This document shows positions 6,193-33,046 of a stretch of 64,000 nt of DNA, piece after piece (the first letter of the stretch is position 1; every line of letters starts with the position of its first letter). Origin of the DNA: a virus (lineage: Duplodnaviria; Caudoviricetes); the IMG/VR virus record IMGVR_UViG_3300050333_000165, positions 39,139 through 103,138 of that record; one strand, 5' to 3'. The position numbers were made by a program, and so were the translations under genes. The notes beneath the pieces are model-generated. The model worked only from the letters and a program-made list of their open reading frames with translations. It was not told the origin of the DNA and made no database searches.

Positions 6193-6320
6193 TCGGCCCT
6201 CTTAGGTCTGCCCCTTGTCTGGTGCCTACTATGGGCGACAGCGCTTGAGCCGGGTGGTGGCAGGGCAGCGCCACCCGGCCTCTCGAAACCATTAACCGGC
6301 CAGAGTGATACGGAGAGATC

Positions 6321-7637: not shown

Positions 7638-7660
7638 AACCGTAGAACTGCGAGGCTCCT

Positions 7661-7864: not shown

Positions 7865-7879
7865 CTGTGGAGAGAGACG

Positions 7880-8671
7880 ATGCCCGTCTTCTGCGTAAGT
7901 GACCTGCACTTGGGCGACCGGGGCTACCGCGACAACTTCGCGGTCGAGGGTCGCGAAGTCCGCTTCCACGAGTTCCTGGACTTCGTGGAGATCGCCGATG
8001 GACGCCTCTATGTCCTGGGCGATCTGTTCGATTGGTGGCAGGTGAACCTGGGCAAGGCGGTCATGGCCTACTTGCCGCTGCTAGACCGCCTGGACGCAAT
8101 GGGCGTGACGTGGGTGGTGGGCAATCACGACAACGCCCTGGTCGCGCTGATCGGCTCCAAACTGATGCCGGATCATCCGCTCTTTCAGCGGTCCCGCCGC
8201 GCTTTCGAGGAGACGATCGGCGGCAAACGGTTCGCCTTTCTCCACGGGCACGAGGCCGATCCGTACTGCCGGGACGCCAATCCCGGCACGGGCGAAATCA
8301 CGGCAATCATCTCCGGGATGCTGGAAGACCGTAACCGGGGGCCGTTCGACCGCGGCCATCATGCGGTGGAGGACCAGTTTGTCGGCACACTGGAAAGCGC
8401 GCTGACCGTCTGGCGAAAACTGACGTTCCAGCATGGCCGCTTGGACGAAATGCTCGATGGCGTGGAAGCCTACCGCCGCGAGGCGGGTGCGGACGCGGTG
8501 GTCTACGGCCACACGCATGAACCGGGGCGGATCGGCGATTACCACTTCAACACGGGCTCCTGGGCCAGGACGAACGACACCTTTGTTCGCATCGAGGACG
8601 ACGGGACGACCGGCCTCTGGGAGTGGTTGCCCGGCAAGCGGGCCGTTGCGTTCGAGCACCTTTTGCGATGA
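7880..8671 (+). CDS. Metallophosphoesterase, LpxH-like
   Basis: SDLHLG, GDLFD, GNHD, HGHEAD, GHTH, NTGSW. Confidence 0.85.
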   Translation: MPVFCVSDLHLGDRGYRDNFAVEGREVRFHEFLDFVEIADGRLYVLGDLFDWWQVNLGKAVMAYLPLLDRLDAMGVTWVVGNHDNALVALIGSKLMPDHPLFQRSRRAFEETIGGKRFAFLHGHEADPYCRDANPGTGEITAIISGMLEDRNRGPFDRGHHAVEDQFVGTLESALTVWRKLTFQHGRLDEMLDGVEAYRREAGADAVVYGHTHEPGRIGDYHFNTGSWARTNDTFVRIEDDGTTGLWEWLPGKRAVAFEHLLR

Positions 8672-9513
8672 AGCCGCTGGAACAGTACCAAGCGTATCCG
8701 ATCCCGGTCGCGGCCATCTACTACGATGCTGCGTTCAACTGCCGGGGCGAGTTCACGCTGCAATCCGTGAAGGAACTGGCCGACAGCATCGCCGAGGCCG
8801 GGCGGCTGATCTGCCCGGTGGCAGTGCAGCCGTGGACCGCGGCCGAAGGTTTCGAGTACCGGCTGATCGTTGGGCACCGTCGATTCAAGGCTGTGACTAC
8901 TTTCCTGAAATGGACCGAGATACCGGCCTACATCTGCGAGGGCTTGAGCGACCATCAGGCCCGGATGCTGAACCTCGTGGAGAACCTGCAACGAAAGAGC
9001 CTCAACGTCCTGGAAGAGGCCCGTGCGATCCAGAACCTTTATCCCCGTGGAGTTACGTTGCGGCAGGCTGCCCAGGAATTGAAGCAGCCCACCAAATGGG
9101 TCCACGTCCGGCTGCGACTGCTGCGGATGCCCGAGGCGGTGCAGCAGAAGGCCGCCGCCGGCCTGCTCTCGCAGGCGAACCTGGAAACGCTCTCCGGCAT
9201 GGAATCGCCCGAGGATCAGATTGTGGCCGCTCGCAAGATCGTCGAGGCGCGGGAGCGGGGCAAGGGCAAGTTCCTGCCCGGCCTGGACAGAGCGTGTAAA
9301 CGTCGTGCCGGTGTTCGCCCCCGCGAGGAAATCAATCGCATGGTCGAGAGGATGTTGGCGGCCGGGATCGTTGGCCTGCCGCCGCGAGTGGCTGCCTGGT
9401 GCGCGGGTTGTGTCCCCGACGCGGAAATTGTGGCAGAAATCGACGCCGCCACTCTAAAACGTCTGGCTGCTTGCGATTTGACTATGGAGGAACAAAGGAT
9501 ACGCCATGAGTGA
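8668..9513 (+). CDS. ParB/RepB/Spo0J-family protein
   Basis: ELADSI...LICPVAV, IVGHRRFKA, ENLQRKSLNVLEEA, HTH; ATGA coupling to the upstream gene. Confidence 0.85.
   Translation: MKPLEQYQAYPIPVAAIYYDAAFNCRGEFTLQSVKELADSIAEAGRLICPVAVQPWTAAEGFEYRLIVGHRRFKAVTTFLKWTEIPAYICEGLSDHQARMLNLVENLQRKSLNVLEEARAIQNLYPRGVTLRQAAQELKQPTKWVHVRLRLLRMPEAVQQKAAAGLLSQANLETLSGMESPEDQIVAARKIVEARERGKGKFLPGLDRACKRRAGVRPREEINRMVERMLAAGIVGLPPRVAAWCAGCVPDAEIVAEIDAATLKRLAACDLTMEEQRIRHE
9451..9480 (+). promoter_or_regulatory. Degenerate copy of the putative phage-sigma promoter
   Basis: ACTCTAAA-N13-TGCGATTTG upstream of GGAGG and ATG 9506. Confidence 0.45.
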
Positions 9514-9889
9514 CGACGCTGCCTGCCATCGGACCCCCGATGCGGAGTCGGCGGCCCCGCCGCCCGGCATCCAAATCAAGTTGCTCGCCAAGGGCACCGT
9601 GTTGCTCTTGGAGGGTGAGACGGACATCTACGAATTGACGGTGCGTTATCCCGAGTACGGGATTGTGGAAGTGAACTCCAACCATACGGCCTTGCGTCAG
9701 GCGGGCTACGGCCAATTCACAGGCAGCGTTCGGCCAGCCCATCCGGGCGTCCACTCCAACGCGATTCAGAAAGACTGGGCAATGATGCTCCGCTTCCGCA
9801 ACGGCGAGTTCCTGACACAGCGCATCCTGGCCGCTCGTGTCTGCGGCGTGGGCGACGACGGGAGCCACTGGTCCTACGACGTGTTTTAG
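9506..9889 (+). CDS. Hypothetical protein
   Basis: Overlaps the ParB stop; coding-like codon bias. Confidence 0.6.
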   Translation: MSDDAACHRTPDAESAAPPPGIQIKLLAKGTVLLLEGETDIYELTVRYPEYGIVEVNSNHTALRQAGYGQFTGSVRPAHPGVHSNAIQKDWAMMLRFRNGEFLTQRILAARVCGVGDDGSHWSYDVF

Positions 9890-9936
9890 CTCGAAGTTGT
9901 GGCATTTCACCGACCCTTTTTACCGTGGAGTCCTGC

Positions 9937-10266
9937 ATGAATCCTTGGGAAATCGTCCTTTGGCTCGTCCCCCTTGCATTCGCCTTCCTCTGCGTGCATC
10001 GACTTCGCAAGGCGTGCAACGCCCTGGGGCGTGCAAAGGCGGTGTGGAAGACTTACGCCATTTCCGTGGAGACCGCCTACGAGTGCGATCTGGAGTACGA
10101 CGACGCTCGCACATGCCCCCAGCGTGCGGCGGCGCTTGACCAAATGGGACGAGCAGGGATCGCCGCCGGAATCGCTGCGGAAATGTTGTGCCACATGGGT
10201 GAGTACCCAGATGCCTATGGGTCCAGCCCTTTTCTCCCAGCGCGCGCTCCGGCGCGGAACTCATAA
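9937..10266 (+). CDS. Hypothetical membrane-anchored protein
   Basis: GGAG RBS; N-terminal hydrophobic helix IVLWLVPLAFAFLCV. Confidence 0.55.
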   Translation: MNPWEIVLWLVPLAFAFLCVHRLRKACNALGRAKAVWKTYAISVETAYECDLEYDDARTCPQRAAALDQMGRAGIAAGIAAEMLCHMGEYPDAYGSSPFLPARAPARNS

Positions 10267-10285
10267 CCGCAGGGCCGGTGACGGC

Positions 10286-12910
10286 ATGAGCAAAATCTAT
10301 ATCGATACCGAAACCTGCGGGCTGCACAGCATGATGGTGATGTTGCAGTATGCCGTGGAAGACGGCCCTATCACCCTGTATGAGGTCTGGCGGCGGCCGA
10401 TCCGCGAGACACTGACGCTGATCGAGTGGATATGCCAGCACACGGTCGTCGGCTTCAACTTGTCCTTCGACTGGTTTCAAGTTGTCAAGACGTACACCGT
10501 CTTCCGCCTTTGCGACCACGACTGGATTCCCGAGGATCACATTGACGAAATCGCCATGCTTGAGCCGCACGGGCAGGACGGCCCTTGCGTCAAGCCGGCG
10601 GCGGCCCTGGACCTGATGCTCCACAGCCGGAAGGGACCAATGCAATCGCTCATGGCCCGCGAGGATATCCGCATCAAGCGGGTTCCCACGGCCCTGGCCT
10701 ACGCCCTGGCGCGAGAGTTGGAGGCCAGGGTCCAATTTGACAACATCTACTTCGCCAAGTCAGCCAACCCGGACGCGCCCAAGTGGCAGGTGTTCGACCG
10801 CCACGATTCCTTCGGCGATCTGGACACCGAGTTCAAGGATGTCGTCCTGAAGTTCCACCCTGCTGGTGGCCTCAAATTCCTGGCTGAATACCTCCTGAAG
10901 CTCAAGCCCAAGTATCACTACCGCGACGTGGAGCCGTCGCCCACATGGCGACCCTACGAGTTGGGCTACGCGCCCACGGCGCTGGCTGTGTCGAGTCCCG
11001 AGAAAAGCTGGGCAATCGAGGCCGATGATGAAGACGGCAAAGGAAAGAAGGTCACAAAGTACGCCTGGCCGGGCGTGATTCGCAAGTTCATCGACCACTG
11101 GGCCACCCGTCACGATGCCCGCGAATACGCCACGGACGACATCGTTTATACGCGGGCGCTGGACAAGCACTTCGGCTGCCCCGAGCCAGGCGACAACGAC
11201 TCCACCCTGGCCTGTATGGTGGCGGCCGTCCGCTGGCACGGGTTCAAAATCGACGTGGAAGGGATGAAGCGGTTGCGGGCCACGGCCGAGGCGGTGGTCG
11301 CCGCCAGCCCAGTGAATGTCAATAAGCCGGGCGAAGTCCGCAACTACATCACTGGGGCGATGGATGACACGGAAAGCCTCATCCTGGAAACGTCCACCAA
11401 AAAGGCCAACCTGGAAGCCATCGACGGCTGGCGGATCGGCGAGATGTGCCCGAGGTGCAAGGCCAAGGGCCATCTGGAAAAGGAAATAGACATCTGTCCC
11501 CAGTGCGGCGGTGTCGGCTACGTCGGCGAGTCGGAACCGTGCGGCAAGTGCGAAGGCGATCCGGCCTGCCCGCGCTGTGGCGGCACAGGGTTCCTCAAGC
11601 CGGGGCTGCACCCGGCGGCCGTCCGGGCGCGGGAAATCCTGGGCGTCAAGTTCGCCGTCAAGGAAATCGAACTCTACGACAAGCTGATCCTGGCCGGCAA
11701 GTTCCACGCCAGCTTCATCGTGATCGGTGCCCTCTCCTCCCGTATGGCGGGGGCCGATGGGCTCAATCCCCAGGGCATCAAGCACACGGTCGAAGTCCGG
11801 CAGATGTTCCCGCTCGCGTGGGAAGACTATTTTCTCTGCGGCGGCGACTTCGCAGCCTTCGAGGTGACCATCGCCGATGCCGTGTGCAACGACGAGGCGC
11901 TGCGTGCTGAGTTGATTGCCGGGCGGAAGATCCATGCGCTGTTCGGCATGGCGATCTTCCCCGGCACGACCTACGAGGAGGTCAAGGCCAGTGACGGCAA
12001 CAAGACGTTCGATATGTACACGAAGGGCAAGCAGGGCTTCTTCGGCACGATGCTCTACGGCGGCGACCACAGCACGCTGGTGCATCGGCTGGGCATCCGG
12101 GAAGAGGTGGCCAGGGCGGCAATCGAGAACTTCGGCAGCCGGTTTGTGGGCGTCAAGCGGTGGCGTAAGCGGGTCGCCGATTTGTTCTGCTCCATGACGC
12201 AACCCGGTGGCATCGGCACGAAGGTCGTCTGGAAAGACCCGGCCGAGTATGCCGAGACGATGCTGGGCTTCCGCCGCTACTTCACCCTGGAAAACCGCAT
12301 CTGCAGGGAACTGTTCAACCTGGCCTGCAATCTGCCGAAACGCTGGCGCGACCACGGCACGGTCGTGCGCCGCGAAAAGACACTTGCGGCTGGAAAGGAA
12401 GTGGTGGTCGCTCATATCGCAGCGATCTCCCTGGAAAACGGCGTCGAGGTCCGCAAAGAAATCGTCGTGCCCGAAGAGTACGCGAAAGAGCACGTGCTCA
12501 AAGTCGTCCGCCGCGACCGGGTGCAGACGCCGGGTGGTGCAGTCTCCAGCGCGTTGTACGGCGCGGCCTTCTCGATGCAGGCGGCCAACATGCGGGCGGC
12601 GGCGAACCACGAAATCCAGTCGCCCGGTGCCGAAATCACCAAGCACGTCCAACGGCAGATTTGGGACTTGCAGCCCGTGGGCGTCCACGATTGGCGGGTC
12701 GCAATTCTGAATATCCACGACGAATTGATGTGCGTCACCCGGCCGGACATGGTTTCGAGCGTCACGCAGGTAGTTCGCGATTCAGTCGAGCACTTCCGCC
12801 CCTATGTACCGCTGATCGGAATGGATTGGTTCGAGGAGATGAATAGCTGGGCGGAAAAGAAGAGCGGGGCCACGCAGATCAAGATTCGCGCGCCGGAGAT
12901 GATGAAGTAA
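10286..12910 (+). CDS. DNA polymerase family A with 3'-5' exonuclease and Zn-finger insert
   Basis: ExoI IDTET, ExoII GFNLSFD, ExoIII YATDD; motif A DFAAFE; motif B KQGFFGTMLYG; motif C IHDEL. Confidence 0.9.
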   Translation: MSKIYIDTETCGLHSMMVMLQYAVEDGPITLYEVWRRPIRETLTLIEWICQHTVVGFNLSFDWFQVVKTYTVFRLCDHDWIPEDHIDEIAMLEPHGQDGPCVKPAAALDLMLHSRKGPMQSLMAREDIRIKRVPTALAYALARELEARVQFDNIYFAKSANPDAPKWQVFDRHDSFGDLDTEFKDVVLKFHPAGGLKFLAEYLLKLKPKYHYRDVEPSPTWRPYELGYAPTALAVSSPEKSWAIEADDEDGKGKKVTKYAWPGVIRKFIDHWATRHDAREYATDDIVYTRALDKHFGCPEPGDNDSTLACMVAAVRWHGFKIDVEGMKRLRATAEAVVAASPVNVNKPGEVRNYITGAMDDTESLILETSTKKANLEAIDGWRIGEMCPRCKAKGHLEKEIDICPQCGGVGYVGESEPCGKCEGDPACPRCGGTGFLKPGLHPAAVRAREILGVKFAVKEIELYDKLILAGKFHASFIVIGALSSRMAGADGLNPQGIKHTVEVRQMFPLAWEDYFLCGGDFAAFEVTIADAVCNDEALRAELIAGRKIHALFGMAIFPGTTYEEVKASDGNKTFDMYTKGKQGFFGTMLYGGDHSTLVHRLGIREEVARAAIENFGSRFVGVKRWRKRVADLFCSMTQPGGIGTKVVWKDPAEYAETMLGFRRYFTLENRICRELFNLACNLPKRWRDHGTVVRREKTLAAGKEVVVAHIAAISLENGVEVRKEIVVPEEYAKEHVLKVVRRDRVQTPGGAVSSALYGAAFSMQAANMRAAANHEIQSPGAEITKHVQRQIWDLQPVGVHDWRVAILNIHDELMCVTRPDMVSSVTQVVRDSVEHFRPYVPLIGMDWFEEMNSWAEKKSGATQIKIRAPEMMK

Positions 12911-13308
12911 TGGGCAGCATCCGGCGGCCAAGACACGGAGAGGAATTTTACATCCAGCGTGACCTGATTGCCTTCCTCAAGGCCCGAGGATGGCACGTCG
13001 AGCGGATGATCGGCAATGCCTTTCAGCTCGGAATCCCCGATCTATTCATCGCCCATCCCAAATGGGGCCAGCGATGGCTCGACGTGAAACGGCCGGGCAA
13101 GAACTACGGCTTCACGAAGGCCCAGAAACAGAAGTGGCCCGTGTGGGAAGCCTTTGGAATCGGCATTTGGATTCTCACCGGGGCTAACCAAGAGAACTAC
13201 GACCGGCTTTTTGCGCCGCCGAACTGGCGCGACTACTGGAAGGCGTCCTGGGGTCATGTTCCTGACGTGGACGCCGTGCTCGACGAGCTAGACCGCGAAG
13301 GCTGGTAG
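12910..13308 (+). CDS. VRR-NUC-like nuclease
   Basis: E..IQ..., GIPDL, WLDVKRPG, TKAQ motifs; adjacent to the polymerase. Confidence 0.75.
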   Translation: MGSIRRPRHGEEFYIQRDLIAFLKARGWHVERMIGNAFQLGIPDLFIAHPKWGQRWLDVKRPGKNYGFTKAQKQKWPVWEAFGIGIWILTGANQENYDRLFAPPNWRDYWKASWGHVPDVDAVLDELDREGW

Positions 13309-13360
13309 CTCGTCATCTTCAATTCGCTAACACCGCCAACTGCGGAGACACCCTGCGCCT

Positions 13361-13858
13361 ATGGACCTACAACAGCGTCCCGAACCGTGGATGTGTATGC
13401 CCCTGGCCTTTGCGATGGCCTTGGACACGCCTGTCGCCGACTTGCTCGCTGCCATCGGCCACGACGGCAGCGAGATCGTCTTCCCGAGTCTTCCTGAGCC
13501 GCTGCGCCGGCGATGCTTCCACGTCCAAGAGCTAATCCAGGTCGCTTTGGCCCGCGGCCTCGCGGTTACGCCGGTGGAACTGTTCCCTGTCCTGCAATCC
13601 ATCGAAGCCGGCCCGCACAAGACCGTTCTCTACCCGGACAACAACTGGCAACGTTTCGAGGAAACGATTCGGGCCAGTCGCGGCGTAATCGACGGCACCG
13701 GCGCGCGATACGGCCACGTGGTCGCCTACGACCACGGCCGCGTCTACGACCCGCGCGGGCCGGACTACGACTACTCCCGCCTCGCGTGCGAGGCCCATCA
13801 GTTCTACACCCGCTGTGCTTGGCGAATTGACACCATTGGAGAACGCACCTGTGAGTAA
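13361..13858 (+). CDS. Hypothetical protein, papain/C39-peptidase-like
   Basis: Q.....CMPLAFAMAL then GHVVAY...VYDP (Cys-His-Asp order). Confidence 0.5.
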   Translation: MDLQQRPEPWMCMPLAFAMALDTPVADLLAAIGHDGSEIVFPSLPEPLRRRCFHVQELIQVALARGLAVTPVELFPVLQSIEAGPHKTVLYPDNNWQRFEETIRASRGVIDGTGARYGHVVAYDHGRVYDPRGPDYDYSRLACEAHQFYTRCAWRIDTIGERTCE

Positions 13859-14519
13859 TCAGTACAACGACATTCTTGTCTCGCAAATGAGCGAACCGCT
13901 TGACGAGGAAAAGAACTTGGCCCTGTTTGAGCGTGTAGCAGCGGGTGATGCCGCCGCCCGTGAGGAAATGATTGCCGGCAATATGCCGCTGGCTGTCACC
14001 AAGGTTGAGAGTTTCATCCGTTGTTTTCCTGAGATCAGCCACCTTCGCGATGATTTGACCAGCGCCGCGTTTACCGGGCTGGTAAAAGCCGTCAACCGAA
14101 TGGCCAAAGGGACGGCCCGGAAATACAAGGGCAACTGGAATCCCACCGACTGCATCGGGTCGTGGATCAATCGTGAGTTGGGCCGGCTGGTAGAGGATGA
14201 GATGCCGATCCGCGTTCCCCATGAGTCCGATCGCCTGGCGGAGAAGAACGGTGAGCCGATTACTCCGCCAACGGTCTGCAACGTCATTCCTGAGCGCTTC
14301 GAGGTTCCCTCCTACGAGGAAGAACGGGAGATGCGCGATCTGATCTACGCCTGCTGCACGAACGAGCAGGAACGGACGTTCGTCGCCATGCGGGAGGCCG
14401 GCCATTCTTTCGCCAAGATCGCCGTGGCCATCAAGATGTCCCCGCCCTCGGTCTCCAGACTGAAAAAGAAGTTGGAGGCCCGAGTCGAGCGCAAGCTGAA
14501 GGCCCTGCGCGAAGAGTGA
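13851..14519 (+). CDS. Sigma-70 family RNA polymerase sigma factor
   Basis: Region 2 AREEMIAGNMPLA...DDL...GLVKAV; region 4 HTH SFAKIAVAIKMSPPSVSRL. Confidence 0.85.
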   Translation: MSNQYNDILVSQMSEPLDEEKNLALFERVAAGDAAAREEMIAGNMPLAVTKVESFIRCFPEISHLRDDLTSAAFTGLVKAVNRMAKGTARKYKGNWNPTDCIGSWINRELGRLVEDEMPIRVPHESDRLAEKNGEPITPPTVCNVIPERFEVPSYEEEREMRDLIYACCTNEQERTFVAMREAGHSFAKIAVAIKMSPPSVSRLKKKLEARVERKLKALREE

Positions 14520-14555
14520 TTCGGCTCAGCGACGCGAAGAAAAGCTGACGCCGCC

Positions 14556-14585
14556 ACTCCAAATCCGAGCCGCTCTCGTGATTCA
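14556..14585 (+). promoter_or_regulatory. Putative phage-sigma promoter, copy 3
   Basis: ACTCCAAA-N13-CGTGATTCA between the sigma and ligase genes. Confidence 0.7.
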
Positions 14586-14641
14586 TCTAATGAAGACCCA
14601 TTCCCTTTGACAGTACGCAGACCGCTACCGAGGTCCAAGTG

Positions 14642-15793
14642 ATGGCGAAGTCGCTCAAGCGTGAATTCCTGCAACTGGCCGACCGCTACGACCCGCGCAA
14701 GCATGACGTGGCCGGCTGGTTTGTGTCGGAGAAACTCGACGGCCAACGGTGTTTCTGGGATGGCGGCATCAGCCGTGGGCTGCCTACTGAGCAGGTGCCG
14801 TGGGCGTCGATTATTGACCCGAAGACCGGCGAGAAGAAGGCCAAGATCAAACCGGTGGCGACCGGCCTCTGGTCCCGCTACGGCAATCCCATCATGGCAC
14901 CGGATTGGTGGCTCAACCAACTTCCCTGCTGTCCTTTGGATGGCGAGTTGTGGGCCGGGCGGGGCAAGTTCCAGTTGTGCCGAAGCATCTGCGGCGGTGA
15001 TACCCCGGACGAACGGTTCGACAAGATCGTCTTCGCGGTCTACTCCTCCCCGCCGCTGGGCGCGATCTTCAGCACCGGCGAGATCAAGAACGCCAACATG
15101 GTCTGCAACGTCGATTATCTCGCGATTGAGACGTGGATTCGCCAGCGGCTCAACTCGGCTGGTGGTCGCTTCGACGGCGTGCCGGTTCCGAAGCGCTGCC
15201 TGGGCGACGATTTCCGATTTCTGCAACCCGGTCAGCCGTTCGGAAAGGAACTGGCGGTTCTGAACACAGCCCTTGAGAACACCGATGCCTCGGTCTGCTA
15301 CCTCCATCCTCAGACGAAGCTGATCGACATACCCCGCGAGGCGAATCGCCAGGTCGAAGACCACTTGCAGCGGGTGCTGGACCAGGGCGGCGAAGGCGTG
15401 GTGATTCGCAATCCCGATGGCGTTTGGACGCCCAAACGGCACAAGTCCATCCTCAAGTACAAGCCGTTCCAGGATGCCGAAGCCCGCATCGTGGGCTTCA
15501 CCAGCGGCCGGGAGACCGCCAAGGGCAGCCGGCTCTTGGGCAAGATCGGTGCCCTGATCGTGGATTACCAGGGCAAGCGGCTGGAACTATCCGGCCTGAC
15601 GGATGCCGAGCGTGATTTCCTGAATCCCGACATGGCCCGCGCGGCAGCCGAGAAACCGGGCCAGGACATGCTGGCCTTCTTCCAGGGCACGTCGTTCAAG
15701 GTCGGCCAGGTTGTCAGCTTCAAATTCAGAGAACTCAGCGACGACGGCGTTCCGAAAGAGGCTCGTCTCTGGAGGCCGCGTGACGTTGAGTGA
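14642..15793 (+). CDS. ATP-dependent DNA ligase
   Basis: Motif I SEKLDGQR; LDGEL; EGVVIR; LKYKP; C-terminal OB fold. Confidence 0.9.
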   Translation: MAKSLKREFLQLADRYDPRKHDVAGWFVSEKLDGQRCFWDGGISRGLPTEQVPWASIIDPKTGEKKAKIKPVATGLWSRYGNPIMAPDWWLNQLPCCPLDGELWAGRGKFQLCRSICGGDTPDERFDKIVFAVYSSPPLGAIFSTGEIKNANMVCNVDYLAIETWIRQRLNSAGGRFDGVPVPKRCLGDDFRFLQPGQPFGKELAVLNTALENTDASVCYLHPQTKLIDIPREANRQVEDHLQRVLDQGGEGVVIRNPDGVWTPKRHKSILKYKPFQDAEARIVGFTSGRETAKGSRLLGKIGALIVDYQGKRLELSGLTDAERDFLNPDMARAAAEKPGQDMLAFFQGTSFKVGQVVSFKFRELSDDGVPKEARLWRPRDVE

Positions 15794-15836
15794 AACCTTG
15801 TCGCCTGCACCTGCCCCAGATCATCTGGCTGATTCC

Positions 15837-16943
15837 ATGACCGACAGACATCAAACCATCACGCTTGACCGGGCCACGCTTTACCGAGGGGACTCCCGCG
15901 AGGTGCTCCCCTCGCTGGAGCCCGAGCAGTTCACGGCCTGCGTTTGCGACCCGCCTTATCATCTGACGCAGGCAAGCCGTAGAGGGAGCCCGCGAAACAA
16001 CGATCCCAAGACGCCGTTCGGCCGCACGCGACTGGGCTCCCGTGGCTTCATGGGCACGACGTGGGATGGTGGCGACACGGCCTTCCAGCCCGCCTTCTGG
16101 TCCGATGTGCTCCGCGTGCTGATGCCGGGCGCAATGCTTTTGGCCTTCGGCGGCACGCGGACCTTCCACCGCCTGCTTTGTGCCATCGAAGACGCCGGCT
16201 TTGAGATCCGCGATTGCCTGATGTGGCTCTACGGCTCTGGATTTCCCAAGTCGCTCGATATTTCTAAGGCCCTTGCCAAGGCGGCCGAAGCGACCGAATT
16301 GGCCAAACGGTGGGATGGCTGGGGCTCGTCCCTGAAACCGGCATGGGAGCCGATCATCCTGGCGATGAAGCCGCTTGAGGACACGTTCGCCGAGAACGCG
16401 CGCCGGCATGGCGTTGCGGGGCTGAACATCGATGGGTCGCGGATCGGCAGCGGCCAGGCCAAGGGGCGTTGGCCGGCGAATCTGCTGCTAGATGAAGCGG
16501 CCAGCCGGTTGCTCGACACGCAGAGCGGCATCACGACAAGCGGCGCGATGAAACACTTCGTTGGCCCGTATCCCGGACGGAACGCCACGGGGTTCCTCCG
16601 CGGGCATTCCGGGCCGCACAACCAACACGGCGACTCCGGCGGGGCCTCGCGGTTCTTCTACTGCGCCAAGGCCAGCGAGCGCGACCGCACGTGCGAAGGG
16701 CAGGTTCCGAACAACCATCCCACGGTCAAGCCGCGTTCGTTGATGGAATACCTTTGCCGTCTGGTCACGCCGCCCGGCGGCGGGCTGATCCTCGATCCGT
16801 TCATGGGCTCCGGCTCGACCGGCATCGGCGCATTGCTGACCGGCAATCGGTTTGTCGGGATCGAACTTGAGCCCGAGAGCTTTGAGATAGCACGGGAGCG
16901 GATCGACATCGCCGGTAAGAAGGAGAGCCTTGCCCGTGACTGA
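15837..16943 (+). CDS. DNA methyltransferase, N4C/N6A beta-class (paralog 2)
   Basis: DPPY; HPTVKP; LDPFMGSGSTG. Confidence 0.9.
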   Translation: MTDRHQTITLDRATLYRGDSREVLPSLEPEQFTACVCDPPYHLTQASRRGSPRNNDPKTPFGRTRLGSRGFMGTTWDGGDTAFQPAFWSDVLRVLMPGAMLLAFGGTRTFHRLLCAIEDAGFEIRDCLMWLYGSGFPKSLDISKALAKAAEATELAKRWDGWGSSLKPAWEPIILAMKPLEDTFAENARRHGVAGLNIDGSRIGSGQAKGRWPANLLLDEAASRLLDTQSGITTSGAMKHFVGPYPGRNATGFLRGHSGPHNQHGDSGGASRFFYCAKASERDRTCEGQVPNNHPTVKPRSLMEYLCRLVTPPGGGLILDPFMGSGSTGIGALLTGNRFVGIELEPESFEIARERIDIAGKKESLARD

Positions 16944-17700
16944 GACTGCCAAGATTACTTATCGCCAGTACGGCGGCAAGGCGTCCATCGCCAAGTGGAT
17001 CGTGTCCCACTTCCCGGACCACCGCATTTACGCGGAGCCGTTTTGCGCCTCCGCCGCTGTGCTGCTGGCCAAGCCGCGTTCGTTCGTCGAGATCATCAAC
17101 GATCTCGACGGTCGGATCGTCAATATGTGGCTCGCGATCAAGTCGCAGCCGGAACAATTGGCCGCCTTGCTTTGGGCCACGCCGTACACGGCCGCCAACT
17201 GGCGAGAGCAACCGGTGGGCGACATCGACCAAGCCGTGCTGCTGATGGCGCAGGGCGCGCAGTTCTATTGCGGCAACGGCAATTCGTCCACATGGTCACT
17301 CGATAAGTGCCCCGCTCCGCACAAGCCGAAGCCGGAGGTCTGGGCCGACTGGTTCCGGCGGATATTGCCCGCCGCTAACCGCCTGCGGGGCGTCCAGCTA
17401 CTGCACGAAGACGCCCTGGTCACAATCCAGCGGGTCTACCGTGACCCAGAATCGCTTCTCTATATCGATAGCCCGTATTACGGCCACGAAGGCGAGTACC
17501 GTTATCGCGTCGACTATCCGGCGATGGTTGATCTGTTGAACGCCGCCAAGGCCAAGGTGGTCGTTTCCGAGTACCCGTCCGCCGTCGAGTTCTACTGCGG
17601 CTGGAACCGCATCGACCGCGTGACCGCCAGCCGCGCCGGCACCGGGCGGCACAACTACGGCGGCAAGAAGAAGACCGAAGTCCTGTTCACGAATTTCTGA
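16930..17700 (+). CDS. Dam-like (D12 class) adenine methyltransferase with variant motifs
   Basis: YGGK, YAEPFCAS, INDLD, YIDSPY, TEVLFTNF. Confidence 0.8.
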   Translation: MPVTETAKITYRQYGGKASIAKWIVSHFPDHRIYAEPFCASAAVLLAKPRSFVEIINDLDGRIVNMWLAIKSQPEQLAALLWATPYTAANWREQPVGDIDQAVLLMAQGAQFYCGNGNSSTWSLDKCPAPHKPKPEVWADWFRRILPAANRLRGVQLLHEDALVTIQRVYRDPESLLYIDSPYYGHEGEYRYRVDYPAMVDLLNAAKAKVVVSEYPSAVEFYCGWNRIDRVTASRAGTGRHNYGGKKKTEVLFTNF

Positions 17701-17786
17701 CCACGACGAGCCACTCAAAAGCCGCCGCGCAAAGAAAGTCCGCCAACGCCTATTTCAATCCACTCGTGCCCAAATGGAGGTCGAGA

Positions 17787-18182
17787 GTGAAAACGATACT
17801 CAGAACCGCGAGTCTTGCGTACCGCGCGCCGCTCTTGGCGCGGTTGGTGAGTCTCGATGCGCCGCCGTCAATTGTCTGCAACGAAATCGCCCTCGTGCTG
17901 CGGGCAGGACATCTCGCTTACGGGGACAAGCTGAACAAGCACCTGGCTGATTTCGGCCTGTTTCCCTGCGATCGGCATCCGCCCAAGACCTGCACCAAGA
18001 ATGGCAATCGCGTGCTGAATGCCGTGGAAGAGTTGGAGGCCGCCAAGGCTCAACACAGCCGCGAGCGAGTCATCCACTGGGCGGACGTCCTTGTTCAAGC
18101 CGCTGGCGATCTGGCGACAGCCTACATGGGCGAAGAGGCCCAAAACATCGCAATGGAGAGAATCGACAATGAGCGTCCGTAA
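17787..18182 (+). CDS. Hypothetical protein
   Basis: GGAGG RBS with GTG start; overlaps the next gene. Confidence 0.55.
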   Translation: MKTILRTASLAYRAPLLARLVSLDAPPSIVCNEIALVLRAGHLAYGDKLNKHLADFGLFPCDRHPPKTCTKNGNRVLNAVEELEAAKAQHSRERVIHWADVLVQAAGDLATAYMGEEAQNIAMERIDNERP

Positions 18183-18900
18183 TCCAAAGCAAGCCGACAG
18201 CAACCTGTACGACTGCACCCCACAGACCGGGCCGTGCCCGATTGGCTGCAACCAGTGTTTCTACAACCGCCCTGGGGCGTTCTACGTGCCCATTGACCAG
18301 CCGCACTTTCCCAGCCTGGAGGAAGTGGGCGACGGCATTGTGCGGATCAACTGCGGCAACGACAGCAACAACCAGCGGGAGCACGTCATTGCCTCCACCG
18401 CCCAATATCCCCGCCGCTTCTTCAATACGTCGATCGCCAAGTTCGACTTCCCCGGCCCCGTGGTCTTGACCGCCAATCCCAGGGAAGAAGAGCCGGTGGG
18501 GCAGCCGATCTGGCCGTTCCGCGACGGGACACCGCGCAATCTGATGTTCGTCCGTCTGCGAGTTTCCAGCACCAATCTGGATTGGGTCCGCGACGGCGTT
18601 GACTGGTACACCTCCTACCAGGTGCCGGTGGTTCTGACCTTCATGGCCTATTACGACACTGAGCCGCAAGTTCCGGCCGACGTGCTCCAAGCCGTGGGTG
18701 GCCCGTGCTACGAGTGGAAGGTCCGGCACATCAATTCCTACTTTTGTCCGGCGCCGGCCTTCATCCGCTGGGTCTTGGCCCGCTTCCGCGACAACCGCCT
18801 GGTCTCCTACTGCGGCAGCCTGGAGGCCCCTTATTGCCGCAACTGCCGCAACTGCGAGACCTATTACCTCCAAACCGTGAAACGCATGAAGGGTGAATAA
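18169..18900 (+). CDS. Radical SAM-like Fe-S protein
   Basis: CPIGCNQCFY (CxxxCxxC) near the N-terminus; C-terminal C...CRNCRNC. Confidence 0.65.
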   Translation: MSVRNPKQADSNLYDCTPQTGPCPIGCNQCFYNRPGAFYVPIDQPHFPSLEEVGDGIVRINCGNDSNNQREHVIASTAQYPRRFFNTSIAKFDFPGPVVLTANPREEEPVGQPIWPFRDGTPRNLMFVRLRVSSTNLDWVRDGVDWYTSYQVPVVLTFMAYYDTEPQVPADVLQAVGGPCYEWKVRHINSYFCPAPAFIRWVLARFRDNRLVSYCGSLEAPYCRNCRNCETYYLQTVKRMKGE

Positions 18901-18901
18901 C

Positions 18902-19048
18902 ATGGCTGGGCTCGTAACCCTGGTGATTTCCCTATTGGCAGGTGTCGTCGTCGTGACGATGACCTGCCCGCCGCTCGTGGCCGTTATCACGGTCTGCGGC
19001 GTCTGCTTCACGACCGCCATCATCGCCAAGGCGATGGGCAAGCTGTAG
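18902..19048 (+). CDS. Small membrane protein (48 aa)
   Basis: ATG directly after the upstream stop; two hydrophobic segments; not in the ORF track. Confidence 0.45.
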   Translation: MAGLVTLVISLLAGVVVVTMTCPPLVAVITVCGVCFTTAIIAKAMGKL

Positions 19049-19115
19049 CCCCCTCTCCATCTCGTTACATGCAATCGCCAATTGTCTGCAACCCTGCGCC
19101 CCCGAGGAACTTGGA

Positions 19116-19622
19116 ATGAAGACGGGCATCGGAAGCCACACCCGTGCCTTCCGAGGAAAAACCGACTGCTGGCTGACGCCACCGGAGATCATCCGGGCGC
19201 TGGGGCCTTTCGATCTTGACCCCTGCGCCGCTCCGGGCCAGCCGTGGCCCACGGCGGAGCACCAGTACGCTCCACCGCAAGATGGTCTGCAACTGCCGTG
19301 GTTTCGCCGCGTCTTCTTGAACCCGCCCTACGGCCCTCAAACTCGACTGTGGCTGAAACGGATGAGTGAGCACGGCAACGGCATCGCCTTGGTCTTTGCC
19401 CGAACCGAGACGGCGATGTTCTTCGAGCACGTCTGGGGAAAGGCCGCCGGAGCCCTGTTTCTCGAAGGCCGCTTGCACTTTTGCCAACTGGACGGAACCA
19501 GGGCCAAGGGGAACTCTGGTGGGCCTTCCGTGTTGCTGGCCTATGGCGAAGAAAACGCTCGACTGCTGCAGGAGTGCCCATTGCAAGGCGCGTACTGCAC
19601 AACAACCGCGAGGCATCGATGA
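19116..19622 (+). CDS. Phage-type N6-adenine methyltransferase
   Basis: WLTPP, FDLDPCA, VFLNPPYG, ARTET. Confidence 0.85.
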   Translation: MKTGIGSHTRAFRGKTDCWLTPPEIIRALGPFDLDPCAAPGQPWPTAEHQYAPPQDGLQLPWFRRVFLNPPYGPQTRLWLKRMSEHGNGIALVFARTETAMFFEHVWGKAAGALFLEGRLHFCQLDGTRAKGNSGGPSVLLAYGEENARLLQECPLQGAYCTTTARHR

Positions 19623-19762
19623 AAAGACACCCGAGATAATCGTCTGCCGCTTCGAGGAAGTCTGCCAATCAACGTAAGACCGCCCCGGCCGCTCCCGCTC
19701 CTTTTCGAGCAAGGCCAATCGGTCACTGACCAATTACCGTAACTGTCTCGCACTACGCGCTC

Positions 19763-28341: not shown

Positions 28342-29042
28342 AGAAACTCTGTCCGAACTGCGAAGAGCTATTGAAGCCGACCAGCAATCCCGAGGTTGGG
28401 CGGTGCGCAGGCTGCGGATGGAGCGGTCACTACTGGCGGGCAGCCAAGGAAGCGGCGCTGCCCTCCGTAACGCCGAAAATGCCTTACGTCAGCATCGACA
28501 TTGAAACCACGGGCCTCGATCCCGAGACCTGCCAGATTCTTGAAATCGGAGCGGTCTGGGACGACTGGACGAGGCCAATTGACCAGTTGCCGAAGTATCA
28601 CCGCCTGGTGGTCCACAACGAGTATCGCGGCAATGCCTACGCCCTGGCGATGAACGCGGCCCTCCTGCGGCGGCTGTCCGGCGCGCGGGAACCGTGGTTC
28701 CTGGACCCCGACCAGGTGGCCTACGACTTTGCCACCTGGTTGAAAGCCTGCGGTTGGAATGGGCAAACGGGCTTGACCCCGGCCGGCAAGAACTTCGCCA
28801 GTTTTGACCGACAATTCCTGAAACGGCTTCCAAGATTCGAGCAGGTGGTGAAGCTGCACCACCGCACGCTTGATCCGGCTGTCCTCTGGTTGCGGCCGGA
28901 AGATGAGAAACTGCCCGACAGCAAGACCTGTTACGAGCGGGCCGGGCTAGACGGCAAAGTGGCCCACACCGCCGTCGAAGATGCCCTGGCGGTCGTGCGG
29001 CTGGTCCGACTGGGCGTCAAGCGCCTTGAAGGAATGAAGTAA
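28338..29042 (+). CDS. DEDDh 3'-5' exonuclease with N-terminal Zn ribbon
   Basis: IDIETTGLDP, ILEIG, NFASFD, HTAVED. Confidence 0.85.
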   Translation: MKKLCPNCEELLKPTSNPEVGRCAGCGWSGHYWRAAKEAALPSVTPKMPYVSIDIETTGLDPETCQILEIGAVWDDWTRPIDQLPKYHRLVVHNEYRGNAYALAMNAALLRRLSGAREPWFLDPDQVAYDFATWLKACGWNGQTGLTPAGKNFASFDRQFLKRLPRFEQVVKLHHRTLDPAVLWLRPEDEKLPDSKTCYERAGLDGKVAHTAVEDALAVVRLVRLGVKRLEGMK

Positions 29043-29212
29043 TGCCCAGCACCGATATTGACGGCAGTGTGGTTGTGGTTCTCACGACCGCCGAGGCCCG
29101 CTGCGTGTACGAGTACCTGCGCGCAACTGCCGGCGGACCCGGCCTCGATACCGTGGAGCATAACCTTGCCCGCAAGATTGCCCGCGACTTGGACTTACCG
29201 CCGTTGGAGTGA
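29042..29212 (+). CDS. Hypothetical protein (56 aa)
   Basis: TAATG coupling; open to TGA 29210-29212; not in the ORF track. Confidence 0.45.
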   Translation: MPSTDIDGSVVVVLTTAEARCVYEYLRATAGGPGLDTVEHNLARKIARDLDLPPLE

Positions 29213-29253
29213 CAGCCCTCCTGCATGAAGAGAATCGTGGAAGGACACGTGCC

Positions 29254-29715
29254 ATGATACAGCCCGTGTACCAGTCGATACGGCCCGAAATCTTCGTCCG
29301 GCTGGACGATCTGACGCCGGCTGAACGGGAATTCGTGGTCAAGATGCAAAACGGCATCCTGGCCGCCCGCTTCCGTGAAGCAGCACTTGATGTTGAGGTG
29401 GCCGAACATCGCCGTGCTTATACCGAAGCCGCCGCTCGCGAGCAGGCCGTCGAGAGGGAGAACGCGGAACTTCGCCTCCGGGCTGCCAAGGAACTGGCTG
29501 CCCGCGAAGCCGAAGCGACCCGGAAGCAACAGGCCGACAACCTCGAATACTCCCGGCCCAGCAGGACGCGCTACGTCACCGTGTCCTACGACGAAGAGCG
29601 GGGAAAGTTCGTGGCCACCTACTCGGAGATCCACGCCACGGGCGACTCGCCCGAGGAGGCATTCAGAAACTTCGATCAACTGTGGCTCGAAGGCCACTAC
29701 CGCGACACGTTGTAA
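29254..29715 (+). CDS. Coiled-coil protein with C-terminal HicB-like domain
   Basis: C-terminus VSYDEERGKFVATY...ATGDSPEEAFRNF resembles the HicB N-terminal fold. Confidence 0.5.
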   Translation: MIQPVYQSIRPEIFVRLDDLTPAEREFVVKMQNGILAARFREAALDVEVAEHRRAYTEAAAREQAVERENAELRLRAAKELAAREAEATRKQQADNLEYSRPSRTRYVTVSYDEERGKFVATYSEIHATGDSPEEAFRNFDQLWLEGHYRDTL

Positions 29716-29726
29716 GGAACTGTTCC

Positions 29727-29978
29727 ATGAAGCGTTTGGTCGCCTACGTCACGGGCGCTCTGGCTCTGGCGATTGTCTCCGCGGCGGCTGGGTCCGCCAT
29801 TACCTACGCTGCGCTACATCGCTCGGAAACGTTGACCAACCTTGGCACTTCGACGCTTTCGGGCGTCGGGATGGCCGTGGGCGGTTGCTTGGGCAGTGCT
29901 CTCGTTCTCCGTTTCAAGGCGGCCCGTCGCTTCGTGAAGGGAATCGTCCACGAGATCACCGAGAAACGCACGTCGTGA
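29727..29978 (+). CDS. Small membrane protein
   Basis: AAGGA RBS; two hydrophobic segments. Confidence 0.55.
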   Translation: MKRLVAYVTGALALAIVSAAAGSAITYAALHRSETLTNLGTSTLSGVGMAVGGCLGSALVLRFKAARRFVKGIVHEITEKRTS

Positions 29979-30274
29979 ACCCGACCATCAAAGCCCTATT
30001 CCACCAGTACCTGGCCGTGGCGGGCGACGACAAGATCACAGCCGCTATCCTCACGCTGGCCGACATGCTCACGCCGTCAACCAGGACCGAACTTGTCCCT
30101 TCGCCGGCTGCGGACAGCCGATTGCTCTCGGTCGAAGAGGCCGGCAGGCGTTTGAACCTCAGCAGTCGGCTGGTCTACAAGAAGTGCCTCACCGGCGAAC
30201 TGCGGCCGGTCCAGATCGACTGCCGCATCTACATCCCGGTAGTCGAGATCGAGCGCTACGAAGCCGGCCAATGA
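29975..30274 (+). CDS. Excisionase-like HTH (HTH_17/MerR-like) protein
   Basis: LLSVEEAGRRLNLSSRLVY...GEL...RIYIP..EIERY; next to the recombinase. Confidence 0.75.
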   Translation: MNPTIKALFHQYLAVAGDDKITAAILTLADMLTPSTRTELVPSPAADSRLLSVEEAGRRLNLSSRLVYKKCLTGELRPVQIDCRIYIPVVEIERYEAGQ

Positions 30275-30361
30275 AGGCCGCGGCCACGGGACGATCGGCC
30301 CCGTTCCTTCTTTGCGCCTCTCCGTACTCCGTGACTGGATAACACCCGTGACGAACAACCC

Positions 30362-30562
30362 ATGACAGCCAAGCCGGAAGTTATTCCCGTATTTGTCGTT
30401 GTTCCCGATGCCGCACCCCGCGATGTGCTGCCGGCGCTCGCCCGTCTGCTGATTGACATGGCTCGGCGGCAGAAGTTGGCAAACGAGGGGTCGCTGATTA
30501 TGCTGGAGGAGTCGTCTCCCGTAGCCCCCTCAGTGGTTTCACCATGCCCAACACAAAATTGA
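30362..30562 (+). CDS. Small hypothetical protein overlapping the recombinase start
   Basis: Short ORF immediately upstream of and overlapping the recombinase. Confidence 0.4.
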   Translation: MTAKPEVIPVFVVVPDAAPRDVLPALARLLIDMARRQKLANEGSLIMLEESSPVAPSVVSPCPTQN

Positions 30563-32280
30563 CCCCGGCCGCCGGCTACATTCGCATGTCCGGCCGACAA
30601 CAAGAGAAGTCGCCCGCCGAACAGCGCGCCGAAATCGCCAAACTTGCCACCCGCGAGGGTTGCCAGATCGTCGAATGGTTCACCGACGAGGCCATCACCG
30701 GCGATAGCAGCACCGACACGCGGCCGGGCTTGGCGGCGCTGTTGAGTGCCGCGAAGGTCGGCAAGTTCAAAATGGTGATGGCTTGGCACACCAATCGCCT
30801 TTCCAGAGAGAACCCGATGGACGCCATCGGGTTCTACAACCAGTTGCGCAAGGCTGGCGTGGGGCTGCACACTTGCTGCGAAGGAAGCATTGACCTTGAC
30901 GACTTCGCCAAGCAGTTGCTCTTGTTCGTCAACCAGAAGGCCAACAACGACTTCCTGTTGGAAATGTCTGCCAAGTCGCTGCGGGGACGGATCGCCGCCG
31001 CCCAGCGGGGCTGCCACAACGGCGGTCGAACGATCTTCGCAATGGACCGAGGTCTGTTCGATGCGAATGGCAAACTTGTGCGCCGCCTGCAACCCGGCGA
31101 GCGTGTCCATCAACCCGGACATCACCTTCGCCTGTTGCCCTGCACCGATCAAGGGAAGATCGACGCCGTAAAGTACGCCTTCGAGCGATTCGACACGGCA
31201 GACGTTAGCCGCCGGCAGCTTGCCCGCGAGTTGGAGGCGAAGGGCTTCCCCAGCCCAGACGGTGGCTGGAATCTGTGCAGCGTGACACGGCTGCTCAAGA
31301 ATCCCCGCTATGCCGGCACAAGCCAATTTGGCGCGATGGCTTGGGGCAAATATCACGAAATGCAGGGGGGAGACATCGTTGCCAGCGCCGGCAACCGCAG
31401 ACGACGTGGACCGCGCAAGAAATCCGTGCCCGACGCCATTGCTGTCGAAAACGCCCATCAGGGCATTATTCCAGTAGCGCTGTTCAATCGCGTGCAAGCC
31501 AAGCTACCGAAGGCAAAGGGATACCAGCCCAAGCGTAAGGCCGATTACCCATTGGCCGGGCTGATCTACTGCGGGCACTGCGGTCAGCCTATGTATGGAT
31601 GTGGGGGGAGCATGAAGGTCAAGGGGCACGAATACCATTACCACAAATACACCTGCTCCACGTACTGCAATCACAACGGCCCCAGTAGCGGGTGCGCACG
31701 GAACCCCGTGGACGCCCGGCTGATTCTGCGTTGGCTGACTGAAAAGCTCCAGGAAATCTATCTGGGACCGGGGCGCGCCGCCCTGGTCCAAGAGATCAGG
31801 AAGCAACTCAAGGCGGAACCGAAGGCCAACAGGCGGGACGTGGCCCGCTTGGAAAAACGGGCGGCCGAACTGGACAAGGAGGTCAGCCGGCTGGTCAAGG
31901 CGATTCGCACCTTGGACGCGGCCGAGTTGGTTGAAGAGCTATCGCTTGTTCGGGCCGAGCGGGAGCGGGTCAAGGCAGAATTGGCCGAAGCGGGCAAGCG
32001 GACTGACGCGGCCGACCTGGATGCCGAAGCCGAGCGGATCGCCGACCACCTGTGGGCCATCGGCGAACGGCTCGGCAGCTCAGACCCCGCCATCCTGCGT
32101 GACGTGCTCCAGCAATTCGTCTACCGCATCACCTGCCGCTGGGAGACGCTCAAGCGCCGGAAGCGAAGCTATAACCGTCTGATCGGCGGGAAGGTGGAAC
32201 TCTGGCCGCAAACGCCCTTTTCTAGGCCCTCTTCTGTTATTGGGGTAGTGGCGCAATCTCCTGCTGGCACACGTCCTTAA
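30544..32280 (+). CDS. Large serine recombinase (integrase type)
   Basis: YIRMS..Q catalytic Ser; RPGL; NRLSR; recombinase domain NPRYAG; Zn ribbon LIYCGHCG...YTC...C; coiled coil. Confidence 0.92.
   Translation: MPNTKLTPAAGYIRMSGRQQEKSPAEQRAEIAKLATREGCQIVEWFTDEAITGDSSTDTRPGLAALLSAAKVGKFKMVMAWHTNRLSRENPMDAIGFYNQLRKAGVGLHTCCEGSIDLDDFAKQLLLFVNQKANNDFLLEMSAKSLRGRIAAAQRGCHNGGRTIFAMDRGLFDANGKLVRRLQPGERVHQPGHHLRLLPCTDQGKIDAVKYAFERFDTADVSRRQLARELEAKGFPSPDGGWNLCSVTRLLKNPRYAGTSQFGAMAWGKYHEMQGGDIVASAGNRRRRGPRKKSVPDAIAVENAHQGIIPVALFNRVQAKLPKAKGYQPKRKADYPLAGLIYCGHCGQPMYGCGGSMKVKGHEYHYHKYTCSTYCNHNGPSSGCARNPVDARLILRWLTEKLQEIYLGPGRAALVQEIRKQLKAEPKANRRDVARLEKRAAELDKEVSRLVKAIRTLDAAELVEELSLVRAERERVKAELAEAGKRTDAADLDAEAERIADHLWAIGERLGSSDPAILRDVLQQFVYRITCRWETLKRRKRSYNRLIGGKVELWPQTPFSRPSSVIGVVAQSPAGTRP
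32236..32262. other. Putative recombination crossover (att-like) junction inside the portal gene
   Basis: Portal-like ORF ends abruptly (EIA-PLPQ*) here, while the recombinase reads through into portal antisense to TAA 32278-32280. Confidence 0.55.
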
Positions 32281-33046
32281 TCAGGCTGCTGCCGATGTCC
32301 AGCATTACGAACGGGATGCGCGTCAGCTCCAACTCGATGGCCCCACCCGGCTCGCCGTACTGATCCGTCGCCTCGCCGGCCAGGTTGTGGAATTGCAGGT
32401 TGACCCTGCCTGTGGCCGGGTTGATCCACAGATACCGGTAGCGCTGCACCTGGACCGTGGGGAGGAAGTACGACTGGTCGTACTGCATCACCGTGTCCCG
32501 CAGCAGGATCGCATCGAATTCGGACGGGGCTTCAGGCTTCGAGCAGGTCCACGAAAGGATGTCCTCGATGTCGTACTTGTAGAGGTAGGGGGTGACGTTG
32601 CCGGTGTCGGCCAGGGTCGCCGCCTTCGGGACTGGCGGGGCATCGACAAAGATGCCCACCCGCCCCATGACGAGCAGTTCGGTCAAGACCTTCACCCCGA
32701 TAAAGGCGTTCATGGTCGAGCCGCGCCGGTCCACGCCCAGGTTCATCCCGTTGACCGCGTACTGGTAGGCTTTGCTGCCGCCCTTGCGCGTGATGTCCCT
32801 CATCCGCTGGTAGATCGCGTTACGGATGTCATTGATCGCCGCGCCAGCAAACTTCGGGATCGGCGTCATGGCCTTGCGGGCATGGAACTCCAAGTGGTCT
32901 TCCCTGGCCGAGAACTTCTCCAGGTAGACCTCGCGGAACTCGTCGCCGCCGTCGTAGGTCAAACGCCACTTGCGCCAGTCCGTCATGCCGGAGAGGTAGC
33001 CGGGGTGCCGGCTGTCCACCAGGCTGACCGTTTGACTGTCGGGCAT
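32237..33046 (-). pseudogene. Phage portal-like protein, N-terminal part only (269 codons)
   Basis: Immediately downstream of TerL; HPGY...W...GG, VD.RG, GRVGIFVD.P, IPFV motifs typical of DUF4055-type portals; far shorter than a portal. Confidence 0.7.

What the first reader, a model, noticed from the sequence alone, without database searches (positions are those of the whole stretch)
29975..33046. Portal gene split at the 3' end of a large serine recombinase: candidate recombinational ON/OFF switch for a prophage
Seen: the portal-like gene after TerL stops after 269 codons (...DVCQQEIA-PLPQ*) exactly where the convergent recombinase ends. The recombinase has no stop of its own before this point and reads into portal antisense. 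All annotated genes left of the junction are + strand (replication arm); the packaging arm to the right is - strand; no capsid or tail genes follow the portal. Known: serine integrases often have their att site at or in their own 3' end, and gene-interrupting elements (skin/SPbeta type) restore genes on excision. Inference: ~32250 is a crossover site. Either (a) the left arm, with the portal 3' half and structural genes beyond base 1, is an invertible segment whose flip restores the portal and makes both arms co-directional; or (b) the left arm is an excisable or separate element inserted in the portal. Either way virion assembly would be gated by site-specific recombination within the phage's own morphogenesis gene, and the recombinase C-terminus would change with state.
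Basis: partly seen in the sequence, partly recalled or inferred. Interest (0 to 1): 0.88.

Follow-up and report, generated by a model that had tools for sequence, protein, structure and literature searches.

The report
Phage inserted in sibling's portal gene
A complete prophage plus extra cargo (about 119 kb in all) sits exactly inside the DNA-packaging portal gene of a related prophage in a probable Planctomycete host, placed there by a serine integrase whose relatives repeatedly hit the same codon; this is a full-phage version of the known 'helper-embedded satellite' arrangement, not a phage's own on/off switch.

Summary
Observation confirmed. The portal (600 aa in relatives) breaks at codon 262, window 32262-32263, inside the 3' end of a large serine recombinase (LSR). 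The missing 3' half, followed by head, tail and replication genes, lies 119,470 bp away on a 292-kb assembly of the same DNA, on the same strand. So this is an insertion, not an inversion or deletion. The two junctions rebuild an attP with a perfect 14-bp inverted repeat about a CA core; rejoining gives a 600-aa portal 595/600 identical to an intact relative. The insert is not the interrupted phage's own arm: it holds a second, intact sibling prophage (own terminase, portal, capsid) plus about 42 kb of TPR-rich cargo. One LSR clade hits this dinucleotide in seven portal alleles, mostly on small satellite-like carriers; a separate clade, on full phages, hits TerL. It works like helper-embedded PICIs (PMC10111431). 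This scan already found LSR satellites in Planctomycete portal genes on other DNA; the full-phage carrier is the new part. Excision was not tested.

The parts
1..29978 (+). Replication and accessory arm of inserted prophage A (continues upstream: its intact TerL, portal, scaffold, capsid and tail lie at C1:7257-32485)
   Evidence: gene-for-gene paralogs of prophage B's right arm, many 70-90% identical
29975..30274 (+). HTH_17 excisionase-like gene, terminal gene of this phage family's arm; candidate directionality factor (untested)
   Evidence: Pfam HTH_17, phrog_66; homologs end the arm in B and in relatives with tyrosine integrases
30362..30562 (+). 66-aa ORF that travels with the LSR family; second candidate directionality factor (untested)
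   Evidence: homologs directly upstream of the LSR in more than 20 loci, satellites included
30544..32280 (+). Large serine recombinase, 578 aa, catalytic Ser16 and Zn-ribbon cysteines intact; last codons read across the att site
32232..32261 (.). P' arm of attP, inside the LSR 3' end; the 14-bp perfect half of the inverted repeat is 32243-32256
   Evidence: the same 14-mer stands 5 nt from the core at the far junction, L096:8896
32262..32263 (-). Crossover dinucleotide (CA on the portal strand, His262 codon), centre of the rebuilt attP
32264..33046 (-). 5' half of prophage B portal gene (codons 1-261); the ORF runs on to 32237 in att-arm sequence
   Evidence: 98% to P0001; 3' half at L096:8912 onward; rejoined 600 aa, 595/600 to P0001
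33060..34731 (-). TerL of prophage B; a 2-bp deletion at ~33446 breaks the frame in this assembly only
   Evidence: intact 557 aa in the 292-kb assembly L007; intact in relative L003
34732..64000 (-). Left arm of interrupted prophage B (packaging-region genes, PLD/SNF2 cassette, two small serine recombinases, early genes)
   Evidence: 74-83% nucleotide identity, inverted, to A's left arm

Best explanation
Two sibling prophages are nested. Prophage B (minus strand here) was resident. A 119.5-kb element made of prophage A plus about 42 kb of cargo uses the LSR as its integrase; its attP (two inverted arms about a CA core, one arm inside the LSR's last codons) recombined with an attB that is simply a conserved stretch of B's portal gene, at codon 262. 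Shown from sequence: both junctions, direct orientation, frame restoration on removal, an intact site in a 98% relative, repeated use of the site by one LSR clade. Inferred: A captured the 66-aa ORF + LSR + att module from the small satellite-like elements that dominate this LSR family, in place of the tyrosine integrase that several relatives carry behind the same HTH gene; integration silences B's own portal and probably its downstream head and tail genes until A excises; A, having its own full morphogenesis set, does not need B as helper, so the effect is a reversible knock-out of a competitor or simply use of a conserved landing site. Any gating of B is thus imposed by the intruder.
For: 3' half on the same contig and strand, insert 119,470 bp. 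attP inverted repeat. Rejoined portal 595/600 to P0001. A's own intact TerL 558 aa, portal 596 aa, scaffold, capsid. B's head and tail genes have no internal stops against intact relative L003. Seven distinct portal alleles cut at the same CA; these LSRs form one clade, 100/100. HTH + small ORF + LSR ends A-like phage arms also in L139 and L176, there joined to TerL of an inverted sibling prophage at one site in three alleles; phage-borne portal and TerL LSRs are rejected as one clade (AU p about 1e-50), so the arrangement arose at least twice. Relatives G002, G009, G010 carry tyrosine integrases instead. 119.5 kb is within the family's size range of 90-129 kb.
Against: No excised circle or intact attP was found in IMG/VR and no reads could be examined, so activity is unshown. 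The 42-kb TPR-rich stretch is not normal for the family (0 of 5 near-complete relatives have TPR_1) and 28.6 kb of it was not seen, so the insert may be composite. Both ends were found for this element only; the carriers in L099 and L177 are unknown. No directionality factor is identified. B's own integrase was not found in the 58-kb record of its right arm.
Confidence: 0.68

Rival explanations
1. Composite insert: an LSR island or satellite integrated in B's portal first, and prophage A and/or the TPR cargo were added inside it later, or the cargo is a separate island that landed near A's left end. The att pair is real but the 119.5 kb never moved as one unit.
For: TPR cargo absent from five near-complete relatives; recognisable A spans only about 75 kb; the LSR module is 80% identical to that of small satellites while the HTH next to it is phage-type; a similar TPR gene sits beside an LSR and IS elements in another Planctomycete.
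Against: A has no other full-length integrase in the sequence seen; the HTH-ORF-LSR order recurs in other A-like phages; no satellite primase or second scaffold gene lies next to this LSR; total size fits the family.
Confidence: 0.2
2. Programmed on/off switch serving prophage B or the host (skin/SPbeta or active-lysogeny type): regulated excision restores the portal as a step of B's life cycle.
For: Precise removal restores a 600-aa portal; B looks otherwise intact once the TerL assembly difference is set aside.
Against: About 75 intact portals of the family have no insert; a 98% relative is uninterrupted; unrelated carriers use the site in both orientations; the insert is itself a phage with a competing portal.
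Confidence: 0.08
3. One reading: the left arm is an invertible segment whose flip restores the portal.
For: Convergent arms in the window.
Against: Both portal halves lie on one strand of the parent contig with att sites in direct orientation; the left arm is a second phage.
Confidence: 0.01
4. Simple deletion or assembly chimera between two similar prophages.
For: A and B are about 80% identical, and the window's assembly has a 2-bp difference in TerL from another assembly.
Against: The 3' half exists with a matching att arm; the window junction is in three assemblies including a short-read one; the far junction is identical in two records; the same breakpoint recurs in other samples.
Confidence: 0.02

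Closest known systems
Helper-embedded PICIs (HE-PICIs), Tommasini, Mageeney and Williams 2023, PMC10111431
   Same: [quoted passage not shown]
   Different: [quoted passage not shown] Here the integrase is a large serine recombinase, the host group is Planctomycetota by homology, and the insert is 119.5 kb, antisense to the late genes, with a whole phage inside. The satellite-like relatives L097/L136/L163 (primase, scaffold homolog, LSR, co-oriented) are the closer match to HE-PICIs.
Prophage-in-prophage integration in E. coli, PMC8112680
   Same: A full temperate phage integrates site-specifically into a resident prophage.
   Different: There the attB sites inside prophages derive from chromosomal loci (yecE, ykgJ/ecpE, ompW); the text has no occurrence of portal, terminase or serine. 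Here the attB is native coding sequence of an essential packaging gene of a sibling phage.
Gene-interrupting LSR elements of Bacillus (skin in sigK, SPbeta in spsM); from own knowledge, not tested
   Same: LSR, att site at the integrase end, reading frame restored on excision.
   Different: Their targets are host developmental genes and excision is host-programmed; here the target is another phage's gene and no programme is evident.

Membership tests
Large serine integrase system | Catalytic resolvase domain with Ser, recombinase domain, Zn ribbon | tested here: met
   PF00239, PF07508, PF13408 over cut-off; Ser16, Cys343/346/371/384 invariant in alignment
Large serine integrase system | attP with inverted arms symmetric about a central dinucleotide shared with attB | tested here: met
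   14-bp perfect run, 17 of inner 25 bp matching, centred on CA
Large serine integrase system | attL and attR in direct orientation, empty attB in a relative | tested here: met
Large serine integrase system | Recombination directionality factor and demonstrated excision | not testable with these tools
HE-PICI | Integrated in and disrupting a prophage late gene, restorable by excision | tested here: met
HE-PICI | Tyrosine integrase of the 11capE clade, with AlpA | tested here: not met
   serine recombinase; paper states tyrosine integrases only
HE-PICI | Small satellite lacking a full morphogenesis set, dependent on the helper | tested here: not met
   119.5 kb with own TerL, portal, scaffold, capsid, tape measure
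HE-PICI | Element genes co-oriented with the interrupted late gene | tested here: not met
   A and its LSR are antisense to B's portal; the satellite-like relatives are co-oriented
Prophage-in-prophage (PMC8112680) | Whole prophage integrated site-specifically within another prophage | tested here: met
   whether the 119.5 kb is one unit is not settled
Prophage-in-prophage (PMC8112680) | attB in the prophage derived from a host chromosomal locus | tested here: not met
   attB is conserved portal coding sequence
Invertible (shufflon or phase-variation) segment | Inverted recombination sites, gene halves on opposite strands | tested here: not met
Programmed gene-restoring excision (skin/SPbeta type) | Excision coupled to a developmental or induction programme of the target's owner | not testable with these tools
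   no expression or induction data

The most novel reading that the evidence does not exclude
Full temperate phages of this Planctomycete family have at least twice recruited satellite-type serine integrases that target essential packaging genes (portal, TerL) of their own relatives, and use them as a strategy: integrating knocks out the resident competitor's virion assembly, reversibly, while the intruder's own copy of the site is diverged enough to escape.
Probability: 0.33. Interest if true: 0.75.

Novelty: new variant of a known kind. Interest (0 to 1): 0.55.

Why it matters
It extends late-gene tropism of integrases from small satellites to complete phages, and from tyrosine to serine recombinases, and shows the integrase module moving between satellites and phages of one family. 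If the knock-out reading holds, integration itself is a weapon between sibling prophages. It also gives an LSR with attP and attB defined to the base and seven natural target alleles, ready for a recombination assay. For annotation, it warns that one predicted provirus record here is two nested phages. The basic idea (insert in a prophage late gene, restored by excision) is in print and this scan has seen the satellite form before, which caps the interest.

Tried and rejected
Portal 3' half sought in the 103-kb contig and 10.5 kb upstream: absent, only the paralog found. TerL frameshift as evidence that B is decayed: rejected, present in this assembly only; which assembly is right was not settled by reads. 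Intact attP in IMG/VR: none. B-P' junction pattern in IMG/VR: none; P-B' pattern: six, all already held. The parent metagenome record is not held by the genome search; I did not tile its remaining 28.6-kb middle or the part beyond B's right arm, because the fetch from genomes states a limit on how much of a metagenome record a session may hold. Self-avoidance: A's own portal differs from attB at 13 of 44 positions, near the top for portals of similar divergence but matched by others: suggestive only. Functional LSR C-terminal switch: rejected as unlikely. No tRNA at either end; no Rfam hit. P0124 locus had no DNA. Literature searches for LSR or full-phage integration in portal or terminase genes found nothing beyond the two papers cited; the library lacks most subscription papers.

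Full report
Observation. The window is the last 64 kb of a 103,138-bp provirus record. The LSR (30544-32280, +, 578 aa; Resolvase, Recombinase and Zn-ribbon domains) overlaps a convergent 269-aa portal ORF (33046-32237) and reads into it. Portal homologs are about 600 aa; P0001 is 98% identical over the fragment, and DNA identity to its gene ends at window 32262-32266. The same junction is in a 292,498-bp JGI contig and in a short-read Logan contig.

Two phages, not two arms. The contig holds a second, intact portal (C1:8945-10735, +, 596 aa, 76% identical) with its own TerL, scaffold, capsid and tape measure. Everything left of the junction belongs to this prophage A. The truncated portal and all to its right belong to a sibling, prophage B, lying inverted and 74-83% identical in DNA.

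The other half. A scan with the portal's 3' part returned a provirus record that starts 18 bases before the missing half. The look-up of the next gene placed it on the same 292-kb contig as the window, on the same strand as the 5' half, 119,470 bp away. B's head, tail and replication genes follow for at least 58 kb. The 14-mer GGGTAGTGGCGCAA stands 5 nt from the core at both junctions, pointing outward; joined, the two arms give an attP with a perfect 14-bp inverted repeat centred on CA (17 of the inner 25 bp match; 1 in 200,000 random pairs reached the run). Removing the insert in silico gives a 600-aa portal, 595/600 identical to P0001, cut in codon 262. This is integration by a serine integrase, with attL and attR in direct orientation. 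Inversion, deletion and chimera are excluded. The LSR would end at 602 aa on the circle instead of 578, but many homologs stop right at the att centre, so I give the swap no function.

State of B. TerL of B is frameshifted in the window by a 2-bp deletion at about 33446, but the 292-kb assembly has an intact 557-aa gene; I take it as a probable assembly error. B's eleven head and tail genes compared with intact relative L003 have no internal stops. B therefore looks whole but for the insertion. Its own integrase was not seen in the record of its right arm.

What is inserted. About 75 kb is recognisable prophage A, from an ECF sigma gene that has homologs next to the integrase in relatives to the LSR. 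About 42 kb at the far end is cargo: several TPR proteins, a tail-specific protease, an EF-hand protein; 28.6 kb of it was not examined. None of five near-complete relatives (90-129 kb) has TPR genes, so the cargo is unusual, though the total size fits the family. Whether the 119.5 kb moved as one unit is the main open point.

The site is a habitual target. Related LSRs abut the same CA in six further portal alleles, with portals 63-94% identical to P0001 where enough was sequenced to measure, and form one clade (100/100). Orientation follows the core: CA on the LSR strand puts the LSR before the 3' half in sense; TG puts it against the 5' half in antisense, as here and in L099. The sense carriers with known upstream DNA are one satellite-like element (95-98% identical among samples): sigma-like gene, primase, small genes, a head-scaffold homolog 42-44% identical to the helper's, the small ORF and the LSR. 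A different LSR clade abuts one site near the end of TerL in three alleles, and in L139 and L176 the DNA upstream is again an A-like phage arm ending in HTH, small ORF, LSR, inverted against the interrupted sibling. The phage-borne portal and TerL recombinases are rejected as one clade (AU p about 1e-50; 15 sequences, LG+G4, outgroup L110 and L145; short fragments left out). Other family members carry a tyrosine integrase behind the same HTH. Inference: the integrase slot of this phage family is exchangeable and was at least twice filled with a packaging-gene-targeting LSR from small elements. LSR homologs in GTDB genomes are from Planctomycetota, which is the basis for the host guess.

Mechanism. 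Shown: junctions, att symmetry, frame restoration, recurrence. Inferred: while A is integrated B makes no portal of its own and its downstream late genes are cut off from the upstream part of the operon; A's excision, needing a directionality factor (HTH or 66-aa ORF, untested), would restore B. Since A has a full virion set it gains no helper; it gains a conserved landing site and perhaps a silenced competitor. A's own portal site differs from attB at 13 of 44 positions, which hints at self-avoidance but is not exceptional. A's portal (76% identical) might also serve B in trans; untested.

Comparison and verdict. It works like HE-PICIs (PMC10111431), which include portal and terminase sites, but fails three membership features: integrase type, size and helper dependence, orientation. 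It shares nesting with E. coli prophage-in-prophage (PMC8112680), whose sites come from host loci. Earlier notes of this scan describe LSR satellites inside Planctomycete portal and tape-measure genes; they gave me the HE-PICI paper, and I did not check their loci. I found no report of a complete phage whose integrase targets a sibling's packaging gene, within a library that lacks most subscription papers. New variant of a known kind; interest 0.55.

Noticed in passing
L163:629-11095; L097, L098, L134-L138: Satellite-like element of more than 11 kb (sigma-like gene, primase, head-scaffold homolog, LSR), 95-98% identical among samples, embedded in portal genes 63-94% identical to P0001; far end not recovered. 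The scaffold homolog suggests capsid-size or assembly interference.
   Followed up: partly
L139:7590-7610, L176:11725-11745, L132:2757-2777: A second LSR clade inserts at one TT/AA site near the 3' end of TerL of the same phage family; carriers are A-like phages.
   Followed up: partly
L096:7070-7263; window about 51370-51570; downstream of LSRs in L101, L105, L125, L140-L142, L149-L151: A conserved non-coding leader of about 200 nt, with no Rfam match, occurs in the cargo and in B's left arm, and is the apparent target of many sister LSRs on small elements; several copies in one MAG.
   Followed up: partly
L096:8894-9934: A GTG in the P arm is in frame with the portal 3' half (346-aa ORF called by JGI); no ribosome-binding site or promoter is evident upstream, so probably chance.
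   Followed up: partly
window 33446: 2-bp deletion in TerL present in this record but not in the 292-kb assembly of the same DNA; the record may hold other indel errors (about 8 bp of offset between the assemblies).
   Followed up: yes
window 40000-46673: Plus-strand cassette in B's left arm: 502-aa unknown, PLD-domain protein, SNF2/helicase, lower GC; absent from A at the matching place; defence-like.
   Followed up: partly
L092:9600-17341 (G002): In relative G002 phage-like genes (sigma, helicase) continue about 6.5 kb beyond the tyrosine integrase, so its att site may not be next to the integrase.
   Followed up: no
L055, portal region: A portal allele with an internal deletion ending a few codons after the attB position; imprecise excision scar or misassembly.
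   Followed up: no
L169:10057-11547 (G009): A different 496-aa LSR inside a relative that also has a terminal tyrosine integrase; possible further nested element.
   Followed up: no
window 2001-4817: A's helicase-like gene is 938 aa against 678 aa in B; possible intein or endonuclease insertion.
   Followed up: no
P0035 and P0037: Two portal paralogs each listed on a 314,304-bp contig: several members of this phage family may often share one host.
   Followed up: no
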